DNA of 64,000 bases, taken from NCBI GenBank assembly GCA_001662655.1, contig KV460232.1, one strand, 5' to 3'. A program made the translations under genes and the position numbers. The stretch is from Pseudogymnoascus verrucosus (Eukaryota). Under the pieces are notes generated by a model, which was not told the origin of the DNA, searched no databases, and was given only the letters and a program-made list of their open reading frames with translations. This document shows, piece after piece, positions 33,955-42,092 of this stretch (positions are counted from its first letter, which is position 1; every line of letters starts with the position of its first letter).

Positions 33955-36900
33955 ATGTCGCAGATGTACGCGCAACCGCCCGCTATCACTTCCATATTTG
34001 AGCGGTCCTACGCCCATGACCAGATCAAAATCAACTCCCTTAAGCTTGGAGAGTTGAACAGTGGTCGTATGTATCCCACCTCGTTACCTGAACAGCGCGA
34101 AGATCGCAGTAGTTGGAATGCACCACGCCCCGAGCCACTCTCGTTATCAGAACAGCACAAGCGCGGACCATACACCATCCCGCCGCCAGACAGAGCTTTG
34201 GGCGATGAGTCTGCTCGCCCGGAAATAAGTCCGAGGACTACAAATGGAGAGCGACTACCGTCGTTGAGCAGCCTGTTCAGCTCAGCGCAGGCTCCGTTGC
34301 CTGCTCGATCCCCGTACTCTAACCCGAGCCCAACATTCAAGCCAAGGTCTCCGGAATCTGCAGCGAGGAAGGCAAGTGCGAACCATTTGGATCAACTATG
34401 GGATCCGTCATATCGTCGCCCTCGGTCTGAGCCGTCTGGCCAATATCCTTACAACCAATCTCCCCATTCAGTCTCGTCGGATCGCCTACCACCTCCTCCG
34501 CGATCTGTTCTGGACCACAGGAAACCAGAGTCCCCAGGATACGATGCAGTGTCAGAATATAGGGAAGCACAGTATGGCCGATCATCGGCGTCGTCAGTAC
34601 GGTTCTCACCTGGATCAGAGGCGTCGTATCGTGGATATTTCCCTCCAATGCCCAAAGATGCAACCTCGCCCTACGGACACCCCAGGGACCAGAAAGCTTC
34701 TCCGCATATCCAGCTGCACGAGCCGGATATGAGACATTCATACGCGGGATCCCCTCAATCACATGCCATGAGGAACCCATACCACCAGACCCCTCCCAAC
34801 GCATTATCATCTGGCCCAACATCTCCCAAGGACACGCTTGGACCTAAGATTTGGACTGGCACTCATTTCCTTCCTCGATTTGTCCGTCAAGCTGAAGTCC
34901 CTGGCGAGGGAATCTGCTACTTCTACGACGATGGGACGCATTGCAAGACTGTTATTGATGGCGAGCCGGTCAATGCACATTGGGGTGTTACGAAGGCGGG
35001 CAAGCCGCGGAAGAGGCTCGCCATTGCTTGCATTACCTGCCGCGAGAAGAAGATAAAGTGCGACCCTGATTATCCGAGATGTGTCCAATGCGACAAATTT
35101 GGACGGGTCTGCAAGTTCAAGAATGCGTGAGTTGACTCCTTTTGCTCTTCTAGAATGAAAACTGACATTGTGATAGCCCAAGAGGTGGTCAAGGCTCACC
35201 CGAAACTCCACCAGCGGATCCAGAAGACGCCGTGACGCGCTCGGTATCCCAATTATCAGAGCTTGATGGAAATAAAGCTGAGAAGCGTGACCTTCATTAT
35301 GCGCCATACCAGCAAGGACAACGTAGCCCGGGATCGGAAATCGATGAGAACGCACCGAAACGGCACAGAAGCGCGTATGACGCGTATATGCCCGTGAAGG
35401 CCGATAGAGCAGAGGGGCATTTCAACCCAGTGTATTCGCATCAACAACCCTCTCCGAGCTTGAACTACCGGTCTTTGGACTGGTGCACGAGACAGGCGAC
35501 CGAGAACCCGTTTGAGACGAATGAGGCACTCTCGTTTGATCTCCTAGACAATTTGTTCCTTAACACCTCATGCACTACTTACCGCTTTTTGCCTGAGCCA
35601 CACTTCCGAGCATGGGTCGCCGATCGCAGCATAAGGAAGAGCCCCCAGGATATCATGCTTTTATATGGTCTACTTGCGCTTGCGACGGTGTTTTCAACTG
35701 CAGAGGGCGCCAAGCAGCGAGGAGAAGAGTTTGCGGCTGTCTGCCGATCTGCTGCTGAGGGAAGCGAGTTCAACCTGCATCTTGTGCAGAGCAGGCTGCT
35801 CCTTTCGCTATACTACGTGGCTATCAACAAGTACCGCGAGTCGTTGGATTTCTGCGGCTCGGCCGTTCGTGCGGCGACGTGGTTGGGCTTGAACGTGGAG
35901 TTGGGCGAGTCTGAGAAGGGCTCGAATACGACTATCTTCAACCTCGACCGTGTTGCCTATGCGGAGTGCCGTCGCCGAACGTTCTGGTCGTGTTATATTA
36001 TGGACCATTTCAGTACTTTCTGCAACGGCCACCTCAACACTATTAACCCGAATAACATCTTTTTGCGCTACCCAACTACGACAAAGAACTGCGAAGCTCT
36101 GACTGACGCCAGCGCGCCGTTTTTCGTTCCGTCTGGAGCATTGGCCCAGAGCAGCCTCAAGGATGTTGGTATTACGGCCTACATGATCAACATCTTGGCT
36201 ATCTGGGGAGATATACGTGATTACAACTATCGTGCTTCCAAGTCGCCCAATGTTGCAGTTACAGAGCCATTCTCGGCATTCTACGCCACGACCATTGCGC
36301 GACTTGAGGGATGGCGTGCATCCCTGCTACCATCCGCCGAGAACACCTTGGAGAATCTAGATGCCGCGGTAAAAGACGGCAGTGTTGGAAGCTTTGTGAG
36401 CCTGCACTCTCTCTACCTCGTCTCATATGCAAACCTCCACCGCTATGGACGATTCGATTCCGCAACAACCCCCACTCTCAAAACCAGCCTACGGATCACC
36501 TTCGAGCACGCAAACGCCATCCTCGACCTGGCGCAGAACATGGCTAGCCGCACAGTCCGTCTTCCGACCACTCCCGCTGCTTCGACGAAGTTCTCGAGTC
36601 CGTATTTTGGTTTCATAATCGTAAACGCCATGGACATCCTGTCTGCGAAGGGACGATTAGCTGATATCACGACATTCCACGCCCGCATCGAGGGGCCGAG
36701 CAAGATCGTCGATGAGCTGGCTAGCTTCTGGCACAGCGCGCGCCTACAGCAGGATCAGGTCAAGGCGCGGCTCGAAGCGCTCTTGTCCCTGCCGCTGCTC
36801 ACGAATGGATGGAATGCGGCGAACTCGTCGGCGGCGGATGCTGGTGTGAGGGGCGTGGGCGAGGCGGTTGTGGATGCCGAGAGGGGGGTTTTTGAGATGA

Positions 36901-36992
36901 GACGCTCGATCAATTCGCTGGAGGGGAGGGGGGCGAGGGATAATGTTTATGCGGCTACGTTTGAGGTGTGGGAGGATGCGGTGAAGCTGTGA
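33955..36992 (+). CDS. Zn2Cys6 transcription factor with fungal-specific TF middle domain
   Basis: RKRLAIACITCREKKIKCDPDYPRCVQCDKFGRVC; intron 35127-35176; ECRRRTFWSCYIMD motif. Confidence 0.92.
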
Positions 36993-38112
36993 GAATGGAT
37001 GATGTGAGAAGTGAGAGGAGGGTTTGGGATAGGGATTGGAAAGTCCCCGGATGGATGGATGGGCTGGGTCTTTGGGTTTTAACTGGAGTTTTTGCTTTTC
37101 CATTTGCAGGCGGCTGTTTCTATATATATGCATCATGTAACAAAAGTTTCTGGGATTGGGATTGTCATCATCTAGGAGGATAGATGGGAGCGAGGGGGGT
37201 GGATTTTTGAGCAACGAGGGTTTTTGCGAAGTGGAGGGACAATAGGGGATACATGATGGAGGGGTGTTTGTATAGGAGAGAGTGATAGAGATGAATGAGC
37301 AGAGAAGAGGGGGTCTAGATCAAACGACATGGATATATAATCTTAGTATAGTAATCTACCTTCATCAACAACAGCTTCTCATTCAAATCCATGAAATCGC
37401 TCAAATCCCCAAAGTCCCAAAAGTCCCTAAACTCCCACATCCTCACAATCCATCCCCATCTCCCCAAACATCCCACCAATTCCACCCCTCTCACAAACCC
37501 CACAAACCAAGCCAAAACAAACAACACAAGACATGTAGTCAGAATAAAGCCCACGCCATCCCATCCCATCCCCCCATCCCATCATCCATGACACACCCAC
37601 TAGTAAACGCACCACCCCTCCCTCCCCCGATCGATCGGATCGCCCCCCCCATCCCATCCCTCATGAAGGCTCTATGCCCGCGCTCCTCTCTGGGCCAGAG
37701 AGAGCCGGTTGGCTGAAGCGTCGGCGGTGTTGCTCGATTCGGGTTGTGACGGCGAAGTGGGTGCGTGTAGGGTGTAGGGTGCTTGGGGGCGGGTAAGTGA
37801 TTTGCCGGGGCGGTGAGGGAGACGCGGCGGCTGGGCGAAGGGTGGTGGTGGGTTGGGTGGAGGTGGAGGCGGGTGGTCTAAGCGCGAGGCTGTGGGTTTT
37901 TGTGGATGGGATGGGATTGAGGCTGGGTGAGGGTAGAGATGGAGGGATTGGATTTTGACGACGACGACGCTGCTGTGTATTTACTTTCCGGACGGGTTCG
38001 ATACTTGACGACGGGGATTACTCGCAATGCACCAACCCATCTAACCACCTACCTCCACACCTCATTTTCGACCACACCATCCCCACCACCAATCCACCAA
38101 CATAAACCCAAA

Positions 38113-39216
38113 ATGACGACGACCACGCCCTTCCCATCCACCCCCATCGCCTCGCTCCCCGGAACCCCCTACCCCATCCACGCGCTCGCCTACTCCGCTG
38201 CCCCGGCGGCATACATACTCACTGGCTCGGGGGATAGGGCGATAAGGCTGTATAACCCGTTTCCGGCCAGCGGCGGGCCGAGGGGCGCGGTGCAGCCGGG
38301 GAAATTGGTGCAGACGTTTGAGGCGCATGGGTATGAGGTTTTGGATTTGTGTGTTGCTAGGTACGTCCCCTTTTTCTTTTCGCTGGTGGTGGAGACAGAA
38401 GAGCAGAGGCTAATGCGATTGTCCTGTAGTGATAATGCGAGATTTGCATCTTGTGGAGGGGATCGAGGGGTGTTCCTCTGGGACGTAGCGACAGCGAAAA
38501 CGACTCGACGGTTCGGCGGCCAGCACGGCCATACAGCTAGGATCAACACCGTAGCCTTCGCGGGCGTGGATGAGAGTGTCCTCGTCTCCGGTTCCTTCGA
38601 CGCCAGCGTGCGATTATGGGACGCGAAAGCCTCGTCGATGAAGCCGATACAGGTATTGAGTGAAGCGCGGGATGCGGTACAAGTTGTCCTCGTCTCACCT
38701 GCGCGGCCGGCAGAGGTGCTAGCGGGGAGCGTGGACGGAAGGGTCAGGTGCTATGATATCCGCATGGGGCGGTGCGTGACGGATGTTATCGGGGAGCCTG
38801 TGACTAGCCTCTGCGCGACGGGCGACGGGGAGGGAGTCCTCGTCGGGTCTCTCGGGGGGGTGAGACTGATGGATCGCGGGAACGGAGGGTGTTTGATGAA
38901 GTATGAGGGGGCGGTGGGTGGGGAGTTTAGGGTGAGGAGTTGTTTTGGGGGGAGGGGGGAGAGGTGGGTGGTTAGTGGGAGTGAGGCGGATGGGGAGGTG
39001 GTGGCGTGGGATACGATGACTGGGGGGGAGGTGGCGAGGGTGAAGGTCCCGAAGGGGGTGGAGAGCGGGAAGAAGAGGCTGGATGCGTTTGGGAAGGAGA
39101 GGGAGAGGAGGAATGTGGTTAGTTGTGTGGCGTGGAGGAGTTGGAAGGGGAGGAATCAGTGGTGTTGTGCTGGGACGGATGGGGCGGTGACGGTGTTTGG
39201 TGATGCTGAGAGCTGA
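38113..39216 (+). CDS. WD40 protein, WDR83/MORG1-like
   Basis: YILTGSGDRAIRLYNP, HGYEVLD, FASCGGDRGVFLWDV, SGSFDASVRLWD; in-frame 69-nt intron 38361-38429. Confidence 0.85.
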   Translation: MTTTTPFPSTPIASLPGTPYPIHALAYSAAPAAYILTGSGDRAIRLYNPFPASGGPRGAVQPGKLVQTFEAHGYEVLDLCVARYVPFFFSLVVETEEQRLMRLSCSDNARFASCGGDRGVFLWDVATAKTTRRFGGQHGHTARINTVAFAGVDESVLVSGSFDASVRLWDAKASSMKPIQVLSEARDAVQVVLVSPARPAEVLAGSVDGRVRCYDIRMGRCVTDVIGEPVTSLCATGDGEGVLVGSLGGVRLMDRGNGGCLMKYEGAVGGEFRVRSCFGGRGERWVVSGSEADGEVVAWDTMTGGEVARVKVPKGVESGKKRLDAFGKERERRNVVSCVAWRSWKGRNQWCCAGTDGAVTVFGDAES

Positions 39217-39737
39217 GATGTGGGGGTGTGAGCGGAAGGCATCTCGGAATCGAGGAGGCAGGTGATTGATACCAGATCGGCTTCGGGTTGGAGATATGAT
39301 CTCAGAATATGCGACAGGGCCACCGGATTGTTGAAATGACTGGCCTTTGATAATCAAACTATGTCTGGGATTCTTCTGGTATTCGCCGTTCGAATAGAAG
39401 TGTGTCTGGAATGAAGCGGGAGCTGGTGTTAATGAGACCAGTGCTGGAAGAAAAGCTGAGAGTCCTGAAAGCTTCATGGATCCGACCTGTTTGATGCGGA
39501 TGAGCTGGAATAGAATACTCAGGACAGAATGATAAAGCCTGGAAGCATGCCCTGTGCTTGCAACGAGAGCGTTCAAATCTTATCGAAACAAAGAAATCTA
39601 GCGTGGTGATATGCGAAAGGGGGCGAACAACGTCAACAAAAGCTTCAAACAATGAACGCCCAAACAACCCCCGCATTCGACCTCCCTCACAGCCTCCAAA
39701 AGCAGGCCCCAGAAATATAAAAAAAAGCCAAAAAGAA

Positions 39738-39871
39738 TGGTCTGATCCAGGATCGAACTGGAGTCTCCACTGATTCTCATCCGCAAGCCCGCAAGTATCC
39801 AAGGAGCTTGAGTGCCATAGGCCCAAAATCGGAAGTTGAGAGGCGGTGTCTTACCATTAGACCATCGGACC
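39738..39871 (-). tRNA. Intron-containing tRNA or tRNA-like gene; best register anticodon TCA
   Basis: Acceptor GGTCCGA/TCAGACC+A73; D arm GTCT-AATGGTA-AGAC (A box); T arm TCCAG-TTCGATC-CTGGA (B box); 63-nt intron 39835-39773; T-run Pol III terminator directly downstream. tRNA fold is strong; anticodon identity is less certain. Confidence 0.85.
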
Positions 39872-40254
39872 TTTGGAATTAAAGGGTTGCCGCTTGGGCT
39901 GATGAGTATAGTTGCCCCGGATGCTTATCGAAGCTGGAGCCTCAGGAACCAGGTCTCCCTCCTCCTCCCACTCCTCAGGCAAGCGGAAGCCAGCTCAGCG
40001 GCTGTACCTTGCCTAGGGGGGACCTGGTTCCTGAGCTCGGCCGGAGACGCTCCCCGCTGGTTGGCAAGACGAGCATTTTCATACGCCTTGGCCCTACTAT
40101 TCGTTCAATCAAGAGAGCCGTGCAATACACAAACTATAAGGTCTTCTTATAACAGTCTAAACAAAGCTTTTTATATTCCTGATCCAACCCTACTCTATGT
40201 GTTATTATGATACTATTTGTCTGAAGACGGCAATTCTAGAATCCCCTTTGCGAT

Positions 40255-42092
40255 CTAAACCTCACCATCTAACTCCGCCCTCTCCTTCTCCTCAATATGG
40301 AGCAACGCCCCAGCTTCCTTCAACAATGCCGCATTCTGCAACCTACCCGCCTTGTCTGCCAACCCAAGAGGAGTATTCCCCGCCGCATTCCTCTCATGCA
40401 CGCTAGCACCCCTTCTCAACAGCTCTCTCACAACTTCAACTTCTCCACTGACAGCTGCAAGATGCAGCGCAGTATTCTCTGCATAATCCCTCGCAAGCAG
40501 CAATACATGCGACTCTGAATCTAGCATCGACTTGATCTTATCCAACTCTCCCGCCGCAATCGCGTATCCCAACTCCGTGAACCTGACCTGCTCAGTCGAC
40601 AGGGACGCACCAAGATCAAGGAGTGGGAGATGTGCGAACTGGTGCTTGGATGGGAGTGCCGTCATCTCACCACGCAGCGGGATGGACATCTGGCGCACGA
40701 TCTCGTCGTATGAAAGACCAGGCAGCGCGAGGAGGAAGAAGAGCTTCGTCAGCGCAGCCTCGGTGGTCAAGTCGTGTCCGAAGACGACACCGGCATTACC
40801 TAGGATGGTGGCGGGTTCGTATAGAGGCGAAACGGTACCAGAGCGGCACTGCGAGACGCTGACGATAACGATACCACGCCCAATAGCTGCCTTGATGACG
40901 TCGATGAACGCGCCATCTGGTCCCGAGGGTGCGTTGCCTGCACCGAATGTCTCGAGGATCAAGCCGTGCAGACCTGGGACTTTGAGAACGGAGTCAAGCA
41001 GCGCAGGGGTGATACCAGGGAAGATGCGCAGACAGGCCACGTGAGCGGTGTCGAGGGCGAATTGAACGTTGAAGCGCTTTAGAGCAGTGGCGCGGTGGAT
41101 GAGCGCCCAGTTCACATCGATTCCAATACCAGTGACGCGGGCGAGAGCCTCGCAGTTCGGGGAGCCGAAGGCATCGAAAGCAGTGGCGGAGATCTTAGTA
41201 GTGCGGTTACCGCGGTAGAGGGTGCGATGGAAGAAGAGGCAGACTTCTGGAATGAGGAAGGTACCTGCTATGATGAGGGCGCCGAGGAGGTTATCGACGG
41301 CGTCGGATTGGAGAGCGAAGATTGAGGCTTGGGAGCCTGTTAGGATGACGGGTTTGCCGAGGGCGGAGATCATGAATGAGAGTGCTGAAGCGGTGTAGGC
41401 GAGACTGTCTGTGCCGTGGAGGATTACGAAGCCGTCGTAGAGGGCGTAGTTGCTTTGGATGCAGGAGGCGATTTGGGACCAGCCGGCGGAGGAGATGGAG
41501 GAGGAGTCGAGAAGGACGGGGAATTCGTAGAGGGCGTAGCGGACGTGGCGGGAGTACTTGGAGATTGGGGTTCGGAGGGATGGGCGGTACTCGGTGGTTT
41601 TGTCATTGATGATTACTGGTAGTGGTTCTGGGTCTGTTAGACGGGGAACTTAGGGCAGACCGCAGATTATGAGAAATGATGCAAAATCACTGGGGATTGA
41701 ATTGAAGTATGGAAAAGTAGGAGGTAAATTGGTTGCTCAATTGCGTTTCTAGACGTCACATTACTCTTGCACTAGCAAGAGGTGTGAGCATCTCAAGGAT
41801 TCGACTATTTGTTGGATATTGCATCCTGCATATCTGTATGCGGCCACTCTCTATCTCTCTCTTATTCGCCCCCTTTTTATTTCTCTTGTCTCGCATTCGC
41901 TAAGTATAATAAACTGAATGGAAAGTTAGGCGTACCGCATATGCTCCCATCATTAAAGCTCGGCCTTGGCCTCATCGCCTCATCCATAAACCCCGTCGCA
42001 GGAACTAAACCCTGCGGACTCTCCTTCATACATATCGTGCCTCCGGTCATAATAATCAGCACCCTGCTCTCCGGGTGCTGTATCGCCGCCAT
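40255..42092 (-). CDS. L-asparaginase type I / 60-kDa lysophospholipase with C-terminal ankyrin repeats
   Basis: IIMTGGTICM, LLDSSS, LHGTDSLAYTASALSF, KPVILTGSQ, NTALHLAAVSG; ~300-nt intron ~41935-41634. Confidence 0.92.

What the first reader, a model, noticed from the sequence alone, without database searches (positions are those of the whole stretch)
39738..39871. tRNA gene with apparent UCA anticodon (opal-reading) that is not tRNA-Sec
Seen: counting from the D stem gives C27-C31, then U32 C33 U34 C35 A36 A37, an intron, C38, and A39-G43. The intron's TGAGA (39779-39775) pairs perfectly with positions 32-36 and is followed by a 3-nt bulge (A,T,C38). This is the canonical anticodon-intron geometry and favours the UCA register over CUC or CAA. 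The variable loop is 4 nt. Oddities are C33 in place of the near-invariant U33, a C31-A39 mismatch and a C5-A68 mismatch. The A box, B box and T-run terminator are intact. Known: tRNA-Sec has a long variable arm, and ascomycetes lack Sec machinery. Inference: this is a dedicated UGA-readthrough tRNA, a tRNA needing editing, or a repurposed tRNA-like Pol III RNA. The acceptor end (G1,G2,U3:A70,A73) looks Val-like.
Basis: partly seen in the sequence, partly recalled or inferred. Interest (0 to 1): 0.85.

Follow-up and report, generated by a model that had tools for sequence, protein, structure and literature searches.

The report
Intron-bearing tRNA gene with UCA anticodon
This is a real fungal tRNA gene whose spliced product would carry an anticodon matching the stop codon UGA, but this copy is structurally damaged and is most likely a weak or dying member of a small young gene family, not a dedicated stop-codon reader.

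Summary
Window 39871-39738 (minus strand) is a 134-nt tRNA gene: Rfam tRNA 37.9 bits against a cut-off of 29. It has a 63-nt intron at the canonical 37/38 site. ARAGORN calls the spliced 71-nt form UCA. It is not tRNA-Sec.

Contigs of four related organisms cover the gene. Among the 40 rows shown, none falls in the anticodon loop, but 45 rows were hidden. So the loop is probably not a private error.

Relatives differ at three exon positions (U5, G15, C41). Each of these makes a better tRNA: ARAGORN scores 111.4 with them and 101.9 for this copy. The window copy also has a weaker upstream TATA-like element.

TGA ends 14 of 32 long ORFs in the window, so there is no sign of a code change. Gene finders routinely call UCA tRNAs in fungi (PMC5330540).

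One compensatory pair in the intron and one in the anticodon stem of a glimpsed paralogue hint at past selection on structure.

Best reading (about 0.5): a lineage-restricted, suppressor-type tRNA gene family, with this copy weak or decaying. A working Trp-type opal suppressor remains possible (about 0.15). Expression, splicing and charging are untested.

The parts
39738..39871 (-). whole tRNA gene (134 nt pre-tRNA, G1 at 39871, discriminator A73 at 39738)
   Evidence: Rfam RF00005 at 37.9 bits, model positions 1-71. ARAGORN with introns allowed reports the same span.
39836..39871 (-). 5' exon, positions 1-37. Holds the acceptor 5' strand with C5, the D arm, and the A-box-like TGGTCTAATGG at 39864-39854.
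   Evidence: Sequence and script indexing. The A-box assignment is by eye against the recalled consensus.
39837..39839 (-). anticodon U34 C35 A36 in the canonical register. The loop U32-C38 spans 39841-39835, or 39841-39836 plus 39772.
   Evidence: ARAGORN on the spliced form gives tca at position 33 of 71.
39773..39835 (-). 63-nt intron at 37/38 (boundaries may slide by one C). It contains a hairpin pairing pre-tRNA positions 62-69 with 80-88.
   Evidence: G65-C85 is replaced by A65-U85, and U67·G83 by C67-G83, in contigs of three relatives (rows 39807, 39787, 39805, mapped).
39775..39779 (-). intron TGAGA, which pairs with loop positions 32-36 (anticodon-intron helix). The 3' splice-site bulge follows it.
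   Evidence: Minimum-energy and constrained folds.
39738..39772 (-). 3' exon: C38, AGTGG (39-43), variable AGAC, T arm with B-box-like GTTCGATCC, acceptor 3' strand, A73
39719..39734 (-). Pol III terminator-like T5 (39734-39730) and T8 (39726-39719)
   Evidence: Sequence.
39904..39910 (-). upstream TATA-like TATACTC, about -39 to -33. All four relatives read TATATG here.
   Evidence: and rows 39905 and 39906 (full depth in all four runs). Its role as a promoter element is inferred.

Best explanation
This is a genuine RNA polymerase III tRNA gene of a small family that looks restricted to a narrow group of Pseudogymnoascus-like Leotiomycetes. The expected pathway is inferred from the anatomy, not shown. 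Pol III would transcribe from the internal A and B boxes to the T runs. The precursor would fold into the cloverleaf plus an anticodon-intron helix. The tRNA splicing endonuclease and ligase would remove 63 nt at 37/38. The 71-nt product would carry the loop U32 C33 U34 C35 A36 A37 C38, giving anticodon UCA. It is not tRNA-Sec. The UCA/C33 loop appears to be a family trait and not an error in this copy. This copy, however, carries extra damage on top of the family-wide C33 and C31·A39: C5·A68, A15 opposite C48, G29·U41, and a weakened upstream TATA-like element. I therefore read it as a suppressor-type tRNA gene that is weakly active at best. It would be a decaying member of a young tRNA-derived family, of the kind gene finders label SeC or Sup in fungi, and not a dedicated UGA-readthrough device. 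If any of it is charged, the recalled identity set (G1-C72, A73, C35, A36) best fits tryptophanyl-tRNA synthetase, so it would insert Trp at UGA at a low level.
For: Gene and register. Rfam tRNA scores 37.9 bits against a cut-off of 29. The spliced form is called tca. The anticodon-intron helix and 3' bulge appear in the folds. Of 2860 single-deletion variants, 33 gave any ARAGORN hit. None of these is a 71-76 nt tRNA with U33. The 13 UCA variants include the canonical splice.

Family trait. Contigs of four related organisms cover the gene. The differences shared by all four are shown (39769, 39857, 39867). No shown row lies in 39835-39841.

Damage in this copy. Relatives read U5 (restoring the pair with A68), G15 and C41. 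With these three states the ARAGORN score rises from 101.9 to 111.4. Relatives also read TATATG where the window has TATACT.

Multi-copy family. Two or three contigs per relative span the intron, and exon depth is several-fold above flank depth.

Narrow range. Exon patterns gave 0 hits in metagenome, prokaryote-genome and viral contigs. The 284-gene A. niger tRNA list has no homologue.

No code change. TGA ends 14 of 32 ORFs of 200 aa or more.

Background. tRNAscan-SE and ARAGORN give 0.8 and 1.7 UCA ('Sec') calls per genome in 42 Sec-less fungi (PMC5330540 Table 1, passage seen).
Against: There are signs of selection on structure. The intron pair G65-C85 becomes A65-U85, and U67·G83 becomes C67-G83, in three relatives. 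A more distant paralogue glimpsed in one relative keeps the loop CCUCAA(C) on an anticodon stem that differs by a C-G to U-A double change. I worked this out by hand from two loose ends, and it is not certain that both ends come from one gene.

The gene has been kept, with boxes and terminator intact, in at least five organisms. C5 is also present in one contig each of two relatives, so the mismatch is not brand new.

The relatives are close (roughly 90-95% in the flanks), so neither decay nor conservation is well resolved.

Forty-five difference rows were hidden, so copy-specific loop changes cannot be excluded. No expression data could be had.
Confidence: 0.5

Rival explanations
1. It is a working natural opal suppressor. 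The family yields a charged tRNA(UCA), most plausibly charged with Trp, that reads UGA at a low, tolerated level and supports programmed readthrough.
For: UCA sits in the canonical register. Pol III signals are intact and the splice geometry is canonical. Several copies are kept in each of four relatives. There are compensatory changes in the intron helix and in a paralogue's anticodon stem. C31·A39 leaves an effectively 4-bp anticodon stem, a feature reported to favour UGA decoding by tRNATrp in trypanosomatids and ciliates (PMC13092985, abstract seen in the listing). G1-C72, A73, C35 and A36 fit TrpRS identity, but that is recalled, not tested.
Against: C33 replaces the near-universal U33. 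This copy has three further destabilising states. TGA is the commonest terminator of long ORFs here, so an efficient suppressor would be costly. No relative was found outside a narrow clade. There is no expression, charging or readthrough evidence at all.
Confidence: 0.15
2. It is a sense tRNA read in another register. Either it is Glu(CUC) as ARAGORN first called it (51-nt intron plus a long extra arm), or the C31·A39 mismatch opens a 9-nt loop in which C-U-CUC-A acts as 32-37.
For: ARAGORN with introns allowed reports tRNA-Glu(ctc) at 83 bases. Shifting by one base gives a textbook Y32-U33-NNN-A37 pattern. C31·A39 is unpaired in the folds. Partial-intron deletions with a long extra arm score up to 107.4, above the 101.9 of the canonical splice.
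Against: The long-arm model puts its 3' splice site inside a predicted helix and needs a type-II arm that no Glu tRNA has. Rfam aligns UGG+AGAC as the stem and variable loop. The shifted register leaves no nucleotide 26 and a 3-nt variable loop. The glimpsed paralogue has C, not U, before CUC, so the apparent U33 is not conserved (loose ends, by hand). The acceptor and D arm do not resemble the two A. niger Glu genes seen.
Confidence: 0.08
3. It is a tRNA-shaped Pol III RNA with a role outside decoding, or one in which the structured intron is the useful product.
For: The loop breaks the U33 rule. The intron hairpin shows one compensatory pair. The family seems clade-restricted.
Against: No Rfam family other than tRNA matches: only 2 hits at E up to 10, and the second is a chance lncRNA match. 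I saw no C/D-box-like pair in the intron by eye. Nothing positive points to a specific alternative role.
Confidence: 0.1
4. It is a sense tRNA that needs base editing, for example in the loop, or a sequencing or assembly error.
For: C33 and UCA are each one or two transitions away from ordinary loops.
Against: A difference from the window shared by all relatives would rank with the shown rows 39769, 39857 and 39867, and none lies in the loop. Two separate runs hold 0.99-1.00 of the words of the 3.8-kb stretch, though both may be the source of this DNA. I know of no C33 editing in fungi, which is recall and not a search.
Confidence: 0.04

Closest known systems
UCA ('SeC' or possible suppressor) tRNA predictions in Sec-less fungal genomes
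   Same: Gene finders report a tRNA with anticodon UCA in an ascomycete. PMC5330540 Table 1 gives 0.8 (tRNAscan-SE) and 1.7 (ARAGORN) such calls per genome over 42 fungi. The A. niger NRRL3 list has three 'tRNASeC' entries.
   Different: By eye, the three A. niger entries are tRNA-Asn(GTT) genes interrupted in the D loop by a GTAAG...AG insert, so their UCA is an artefact. Here the D arm is uninterrupted, the intron sits at 37/38, and no alternative deletion gives a better tRNA.
Eukaryotic tRNA-Sec (Rfam RF01852)
   Same: Anticodon UCA.
   Different: This gene has a 7/5 acceptor/T fold, a 4-bp D stem, a 4-nt variable loop and a length of 71 nt. RF01852 did not match at E up to 10. Passages of PMC5330540 describe tRNA-Sec as 90-101 nt with a non-7/5 fold.
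tRNATrp-type UGA decoders, including tRNATrp(CCA) with a 4-bp anticodon stem in Blastocrithidia and some ciliates
   Same: It would read UGA. The bottom pair of the anticodon stem is broken (C31·A39), leaving 4 bp. A73, G1-C72, C35 and A36 match the recalled TrpRS identity set.
   Different: The anticodon is UCA, not CCA, and position 33 is C. The host shows no UGA reassignment. Descent from tRNA-Trp is not shown. Source: PMC13092985, abstract only.
Ordinary intron-containing fungal nuclear tRNA genes (37/38 intron with anticodon-intron pairing)
   Same: Intron position, anticodon-intron helix, 3-nt bulge at the 3' splice site, internal promoter boxes and T-run terminator.
   Different: The intron is long (63 nt). 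In the A. niger table most canonical introns seen were 8-23 nt. The loop lacks U33, and the anticodon matches a stop codon.

Membership tests
Nuclear type-I tRNA gene with canonical intron | Cloverleaf recognised by a covariance model at or above its curated cut-off | tested here: met
   RF00005 at 37.9 bits against 29, model positions 1-71. It was missed by the whole-window scan with default filters.
Nuclear type-I tRNA gene with canonical intron | Intron between 37 and 38, with position 32 paired to the intron and a bulged 3' splice site | tested here: met
   Folds: positions 32-36 pair with intron UGAGA, followed by unpaired A, U, C (and A39).
Nuclear type-I tRNA gene with canonical intron | U33 and purine 37 in a 7-nt loop | tested here: not met
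   Position 33 is C; position 37 is A. Only a one-base shifted register gives U33, and that register breaks other rules.
Nuclear type-I tRNA gene with canonical intron | Internal A and B boxes and an oligo-T terminator | tested here: met
   By eye: TGGTCTAATGG, GTTCGATCC, T5 and T8. The consensus motifs are recalled.
Nuclear type-I tRNA gene with canonical intron | Transcribed, spliced and CCA-tailed | not testable with these tools
tRNA-Sec | Long variable arm, 9/4 or 8/5 fold, 6-bp D stem, about 90 nt | tested here: not met
   4-nt variable loop, 7/5 fold, 71 nt. No RF01852 match at E up to 10.
Functional opal suppressor tRNA | Anticodon UCA in the mature tRNA | tested here: met
   Met on the predicted spliced form only.
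Functional opal suppressor tRNA | Aminoacylation and UGA readthrough in vivo | not testable with these tools
   The only indirect evidence is that TGA ends 14 of 32 ORFs of 200 aa or more in the window. This argues against reassignment but not against weak suppression.
tRNA pseudogene or decaying copy | Loss of conserved pairs or tertiary contacts relative to sister copies | tested here: met
   C5·A68, A15 (relatives have G15, opposite C48) and G29·U41 in the window, against U5-A68, G15 and G29-C41 in relatives. ARAGORN scores 101.9 against 111.4.
tRNA pseudogene or decaying copy | Exons evolving as fast as flanks or intron | tested here: inconclusive
   Only some of the differences are visible. 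For the single contig of run X8, 10 of 19 differences were shown: 3 in the exons, 1 in the intron, 6 in the upstream flank.
tRNA-derived SINE | tRNA-like head followed by an unrelated body and tail | tested here: not met
   The acceptor 3' strand is complete and the terminator follows within 3 nt. The window holds no other copy.
tRNA genes with a GT...AG insert in the D-loop region (as in the A. niger list) | Removing a GT...AG insert restores a complete, better tRNA | tested here: not met
   2860 deletion variants gave 33 ARAGORN hits, and none is a canonical-length tRNA with U33. The GTAAGA at D-loop positions 17-22 is part of an intact D arm.

The most novel reading that the evidence does not exclude
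A genus-wide family of intron-containing nuclear tRNA(UCA) genes exists in a Leotiomycete fungus. The family is built with C33 and a broken 31-39 pair so that it is deliberately inefficient. It is charged with Trp and acts as a tuned natural opal suppressor that sets the level of programmed UGA readthrough in an organism that still uses UGA as its main stop codon.
Probability: 0.12. Interest if true: 0.8.

Novelty: new member of a known kind. Interest (0 to 1): 0.36.

Why it matters
If the family proved active, it would be a rare nuclear-encoded cognate UGA decoder in a fungus with a standard genetic code. It would give a handle on how readthrough levels are set and how stop-codon reassignment begins. 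As the evidence stands, the main value is cautionary. It is a well-formed example of the 'SeC/suppressor' tRNA calls that fungal genome annotations carry. Here the call is not a software artefact, yet the gene copy shows decay. It also shows that default ARAGORN and a whole-window Rfam scan can miss long-intron tRNA genes.

Tried and rejected
- Collection scans with exon patterns gave 0 loci. Metagenome contigs were scanned with the 5' and the 3' pattern, and prokaryote genome contigs and viral contigs with the 5' pattern. No orthologue or paralogue DNA could therefore be fetched. These collections hold few fungi, so the blank is weak evidence about range.
- The look-up of sequencing runs listed no RNA holder, so expression could not be addressed. 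Reads were laid on four DNA-type runs (X6, X7, X8, X15 of the 24 listed).
- I rejected ARAGORN's Glu(ctc) model with a 51-nt intron and a long extra arm. Reasons: the splice site falls inside a helix, the arm is type-II-like, and the Rfam alignment disagrees.
- I considered a spliceosomal-type insert starting at the GTAAGA of the D loop, prompted by the A. niger table, and rejected it.
- The window holds no second copy or local repeat of the locus, and there is no RIP-like composition around it.
- Literature searches found no paper describing a UCA tRNA family in Pezizomycotina or Pseudogymnoascus. This is limited to the held open-access library.
- The main text and supplements of PMC5315462 (one of its 13 files not searched) gave no per-anticodon tRNA table for P. 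destructans.
- The ORFs overlapping the gene (39359-39850 minus, 39821-40210 plus) have no Pfam match.

Full report
**1. What is there**

On the minus strand, 39871-39738 reads as a complete cloverleaf interrupted by an insert. The segments are: acceptor GGTCCGA; U8 G9; D stem GTCT/AGAC with loop AATGGTA; A26; anticodon stem CCGCC/AGTGG; loop TCTCAA...C; variable loop AGAC; T arm TCCAG/TTCGATC/CTGGA; acceptor 3' strand TCAGACC; A73. T5 and T8 runs follow (39734-39730 and 39726-39719).

- Rfam's tRNA model matches the whole span at 37.9 bits (cut-off 29; E 1e-06 for the 301 bases searched). It aligns ..UGG AGAC.. as the end of the anticodon stem plus the variable loop.
- tRNA-Sec (RF01852) did not appear even at E up to 10. 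That search returned 2 matches in all, the second a chance lncRNA hit.
- The gene is easy to miss. Default ARAGORN found 0 genes in the window, and the whole-window Rfam scan at gathering thresholds found 0.
- The precursor as a whole is not unusually stable: z 0.43, with 133 of 200 shuffles folding at least as well.

**2. Which anticodon**

With introns allowed, ARAGORN calls Glu(ctc), using a 51-nt intron and a long extra arm built from intron sequence. I reject that model for three reasons:
- Its 3' splice site lies inside a helix of the predicted fold.
- It needs a type-II-like arm.
- It contradicts the Rfam alignment.

Splicing at the canonical 37/38 site removes 63 nt and gives a 71-nt RNA. 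ARAGORN calls this tca, which it labels SeC, at score 101.9. In the minimum-energy fold, and in a fold constrained to the cloverleaf, loop positions 32-36 pair with intron UGAGA (39779-39775). Unpaired A, U, C follow, which is the standard anticodon-intron geometry.

As an unbiased check I deleted every stretch of 30-94 nt starting at positions 8-109 and ending by position 112, giving 2860 variants, and ran ARAGORN on all of them.
- 33 variants gave a hit.
- 13 of the 33 are UCA.
- The highest scores (107.4) belong to 91-nt forms with a long extra arm.
- No 71-76 nt form has U33.

A one-base shift would give a textbook C-U-CUC-A pattern. That shift leaves no nucleotide 26 and only a 3-nt variable loop.

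**3. Relatives**

No genome is held. Exon patterns found nothing in metagenome, prokaryote-genome or viral contigs.

Public runs do hold the locus. I laid contigs of four related organisms (X6, X7, X8, X15, of 24 runs listed) on 39560-40060 at 80% likeness. All four cover the gene, several with syntenic flanks.

The differences shown within the gene are these (positions are on the plus strand; the tRNA changes are given in parentheses):

| Window position | tRNA change | Effect | Where seen |
|---|---|---|---|
| 39867 G>A | C5 to U5 | Restores a pair with A68 | All contigs of X6 and X8; one of two in X7; 185.3 of 702.5 depth in X15 |
| 39857 T>C | A15 to G15 | G15 with C48 is the usual tertiary pair (recalled) | All of X6 and X8; one of two in X7; 921.1 of 1108.6 in X15 |
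| 39769 A>G | U41 to C41 | G29·U41 becomes G29-C41 | All of X6, X8 and X15; one of two in X7 |
| 39787, 39805, 39807, 39817 | four intron sites | see below | subsets of contigs |

Some copies also carry one extra base in the variable loop (the insertion behind 39763).

No shown row lies in the loop (39835-39841). A difference shared by all relatives would have ranked with the rows that are shown. However, 45 rows were hidden, so copy-specific loop changes cannot be excluded.

One contig of X7 matches the window at all three exon sites. C5 is therefore older than this genome.

With U5, G15 and C41 the spliced form scores 111.4 in ARAGORN, against 101.9 for the window's own form. Upstream, the window reads TATACTC at 39910-39904, while all four relatives read TATATG (rows 39905 and 39906, full depth). 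Taken together, this copy is the worst-formed of those seen.

**4. Signs of constraint**

- Mapped onto the fold, intron positions 65 and 85 are partners. They change together from G-C to A-U in contigs of three relatives, and U67·G83 becomes C67-G83. The fourth intron difference lies in a hairpin loop.
- Two loose ends in X15 (at 39848 and 39768) read, after reverse-complementing by hand, as the two halves of a more distant paralogue. Its anticodon stem differs from ours at four positions, including a C-G to U-A double change. Its 31-39 pair is C-G. Its loop reads CCUCAA(C), again with C33 and UCA, and again faces a complementary intron segment.
- That the two ends belong to one gene is inferred from their complementarity.
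- These hints favour a family that has been under structural selection. At this level of divergence, keeping 6 of 7 loop bases is not significant by itself.
- Depth over the exons is several-fold above the flanks (for example about 1360 against 173-195 in X15). Overlapping unitigs inflate that figure. Two to three intron-sharing copies per relative is the safer estimate.

**5. Host and context**

- The neighbouring asparaginase/ankyrin protein is 95% identical to a protein named from a Pseudogymnoascus species. The next hits, at about 65-73%, are other Leotiomycetes. The protein atlas says Ascomycota.
- The gene lies between the 3' ends of a WD40 gene (ORF 37921-39216, plus strand) and that asparaginase gene (ORF 40255-41649, minus strand).
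- ORFs overlapping the tRNA have no Pfam match.
- TGA terminates 14 of 32 ORFs of at least 200 aa (TAG 11, TAA 7). Nothing suggests UGA is read as sense.
- There is no second copy or RIP-like composition locally.

**6. What is known**

- PMC5330540 (passages read) states that tRNAscan-SE and ARAGORN give many false tRNA-Sec calls in fungi. Table 1 gives 0.8 and 1.7 per genome over 42 fungi.
- The A. niger NRRL3 tRNA list (PMC6108506, passages and S1 Table rows) reports three 'selenocysteine' tRNAs. By eye these are tRNA-Asn(GTT) genes interrupted in the D loop by an insert with GTAAG...AG ends. Their UCA is therefore an artefact.
- That table contains nothing resembling our gene. Five of the six motifs searched and all six were absent. 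The sixth motif (GGTCTAGTGGTA, 32 occurrences) matched only unrelated Gly, His and Pro genes and two mis-called Pro genes.
- Our case differs from both kinds of artefact. The cloverleaf is intact and the intron is canonical.
- A tRNATrp(CCA) with a 4-bp anticodon stem reads UGA in some protists (PMC13092985, abstract only). Our C31·A39 likewise leaves 4 bp, but here the anticodon itself is cognate.

**7. Verdict**

Shown:
- It is a real tRNA gene with a canonical-position intron.
- The predicted mature form carries UCA.
- It is not tRNA-Sec.
- It belongs to a small multi-copy family in close relatives.
- This copy is structurally inferior to its relatives' copies.
- The window shows no UGA reassignment.

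Inferred:
- Pol III transcription and splicing.
- The loop is a family trait.
- TrpRS is the likeliest charging enzyme, from recalled identity rules.
- Activity is low or absent.

I put about 0.5 on a weak or decaying suppressor-type gene of a young family. I put about 0.15 on a genuinely working opal suppressor. The rest is split among a shifted-register sense tRNA, a non-decoding RNA, and editing or error. Expression, splicing, charging and the base-level loop sequence in relatives remain open.

Noticed in passing
outside the window: PMC6108506 S1 Table, rows 57, 196, 218-226: In the published A. niger tRNA list, the entries called SeC(TCA), several 'Pseudo', 'Asp6(ATC)' and 'Phe3(AAA)' look by eye like normal tRNA-Asn(GTT), tRNA-Trp(CCA) and tRNA-Pro(TGG) genes. 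Each is interrupted in or next to the D loop by a 56-64 nt insert that starts GTAAG, carries CTAAC or TACTAAT near its end, and ends AG. That is the pattern of a spliceosomal-type intron. A search of the held papers found no description of this.
   Followed up: partly
window 39904-39910 (minus strand): There is a TATA-like TATACTC about 35 nt upstream of the tRNA start. All four related organisms read TATATG there (rows 39905 and 39906). The window copy may therefore have a weakened upstream promoter element.
   Followed up: partly
window 39763-39764: Some copies in relatives (X7, X15, and a loose end in X6) carry one extra base in the variable loop, making it 5 nt instead of 4 (table 4 and loose end at 39763).
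   Followed up: partly
window 39941-39959 and 40017-40035: A 19-nt inverted repeat (18 of 19 matching) lies in the upstream intergenic region. Its meaning is unknown.
   Followed up: no
window 35166-36992 (+), 37921-39216 (+), 40255-41649 (-): The neighbouring ORFs encode a fungal-specific transcription factor domain protein, a WD40 beta-propeller protein, and an asparaginase with C-terminal ankyrin repeats. The first two ORFs end in TGA.
   Followed up: partly
window 39738-39871: Method note: this long-intron tRNA gene is invisible to ARAGORN without -i and to a 64-kb Rfam scan at gathering thresholds. It scores above the cut-off when 301 bases are searched alone.
   Followed up: yes
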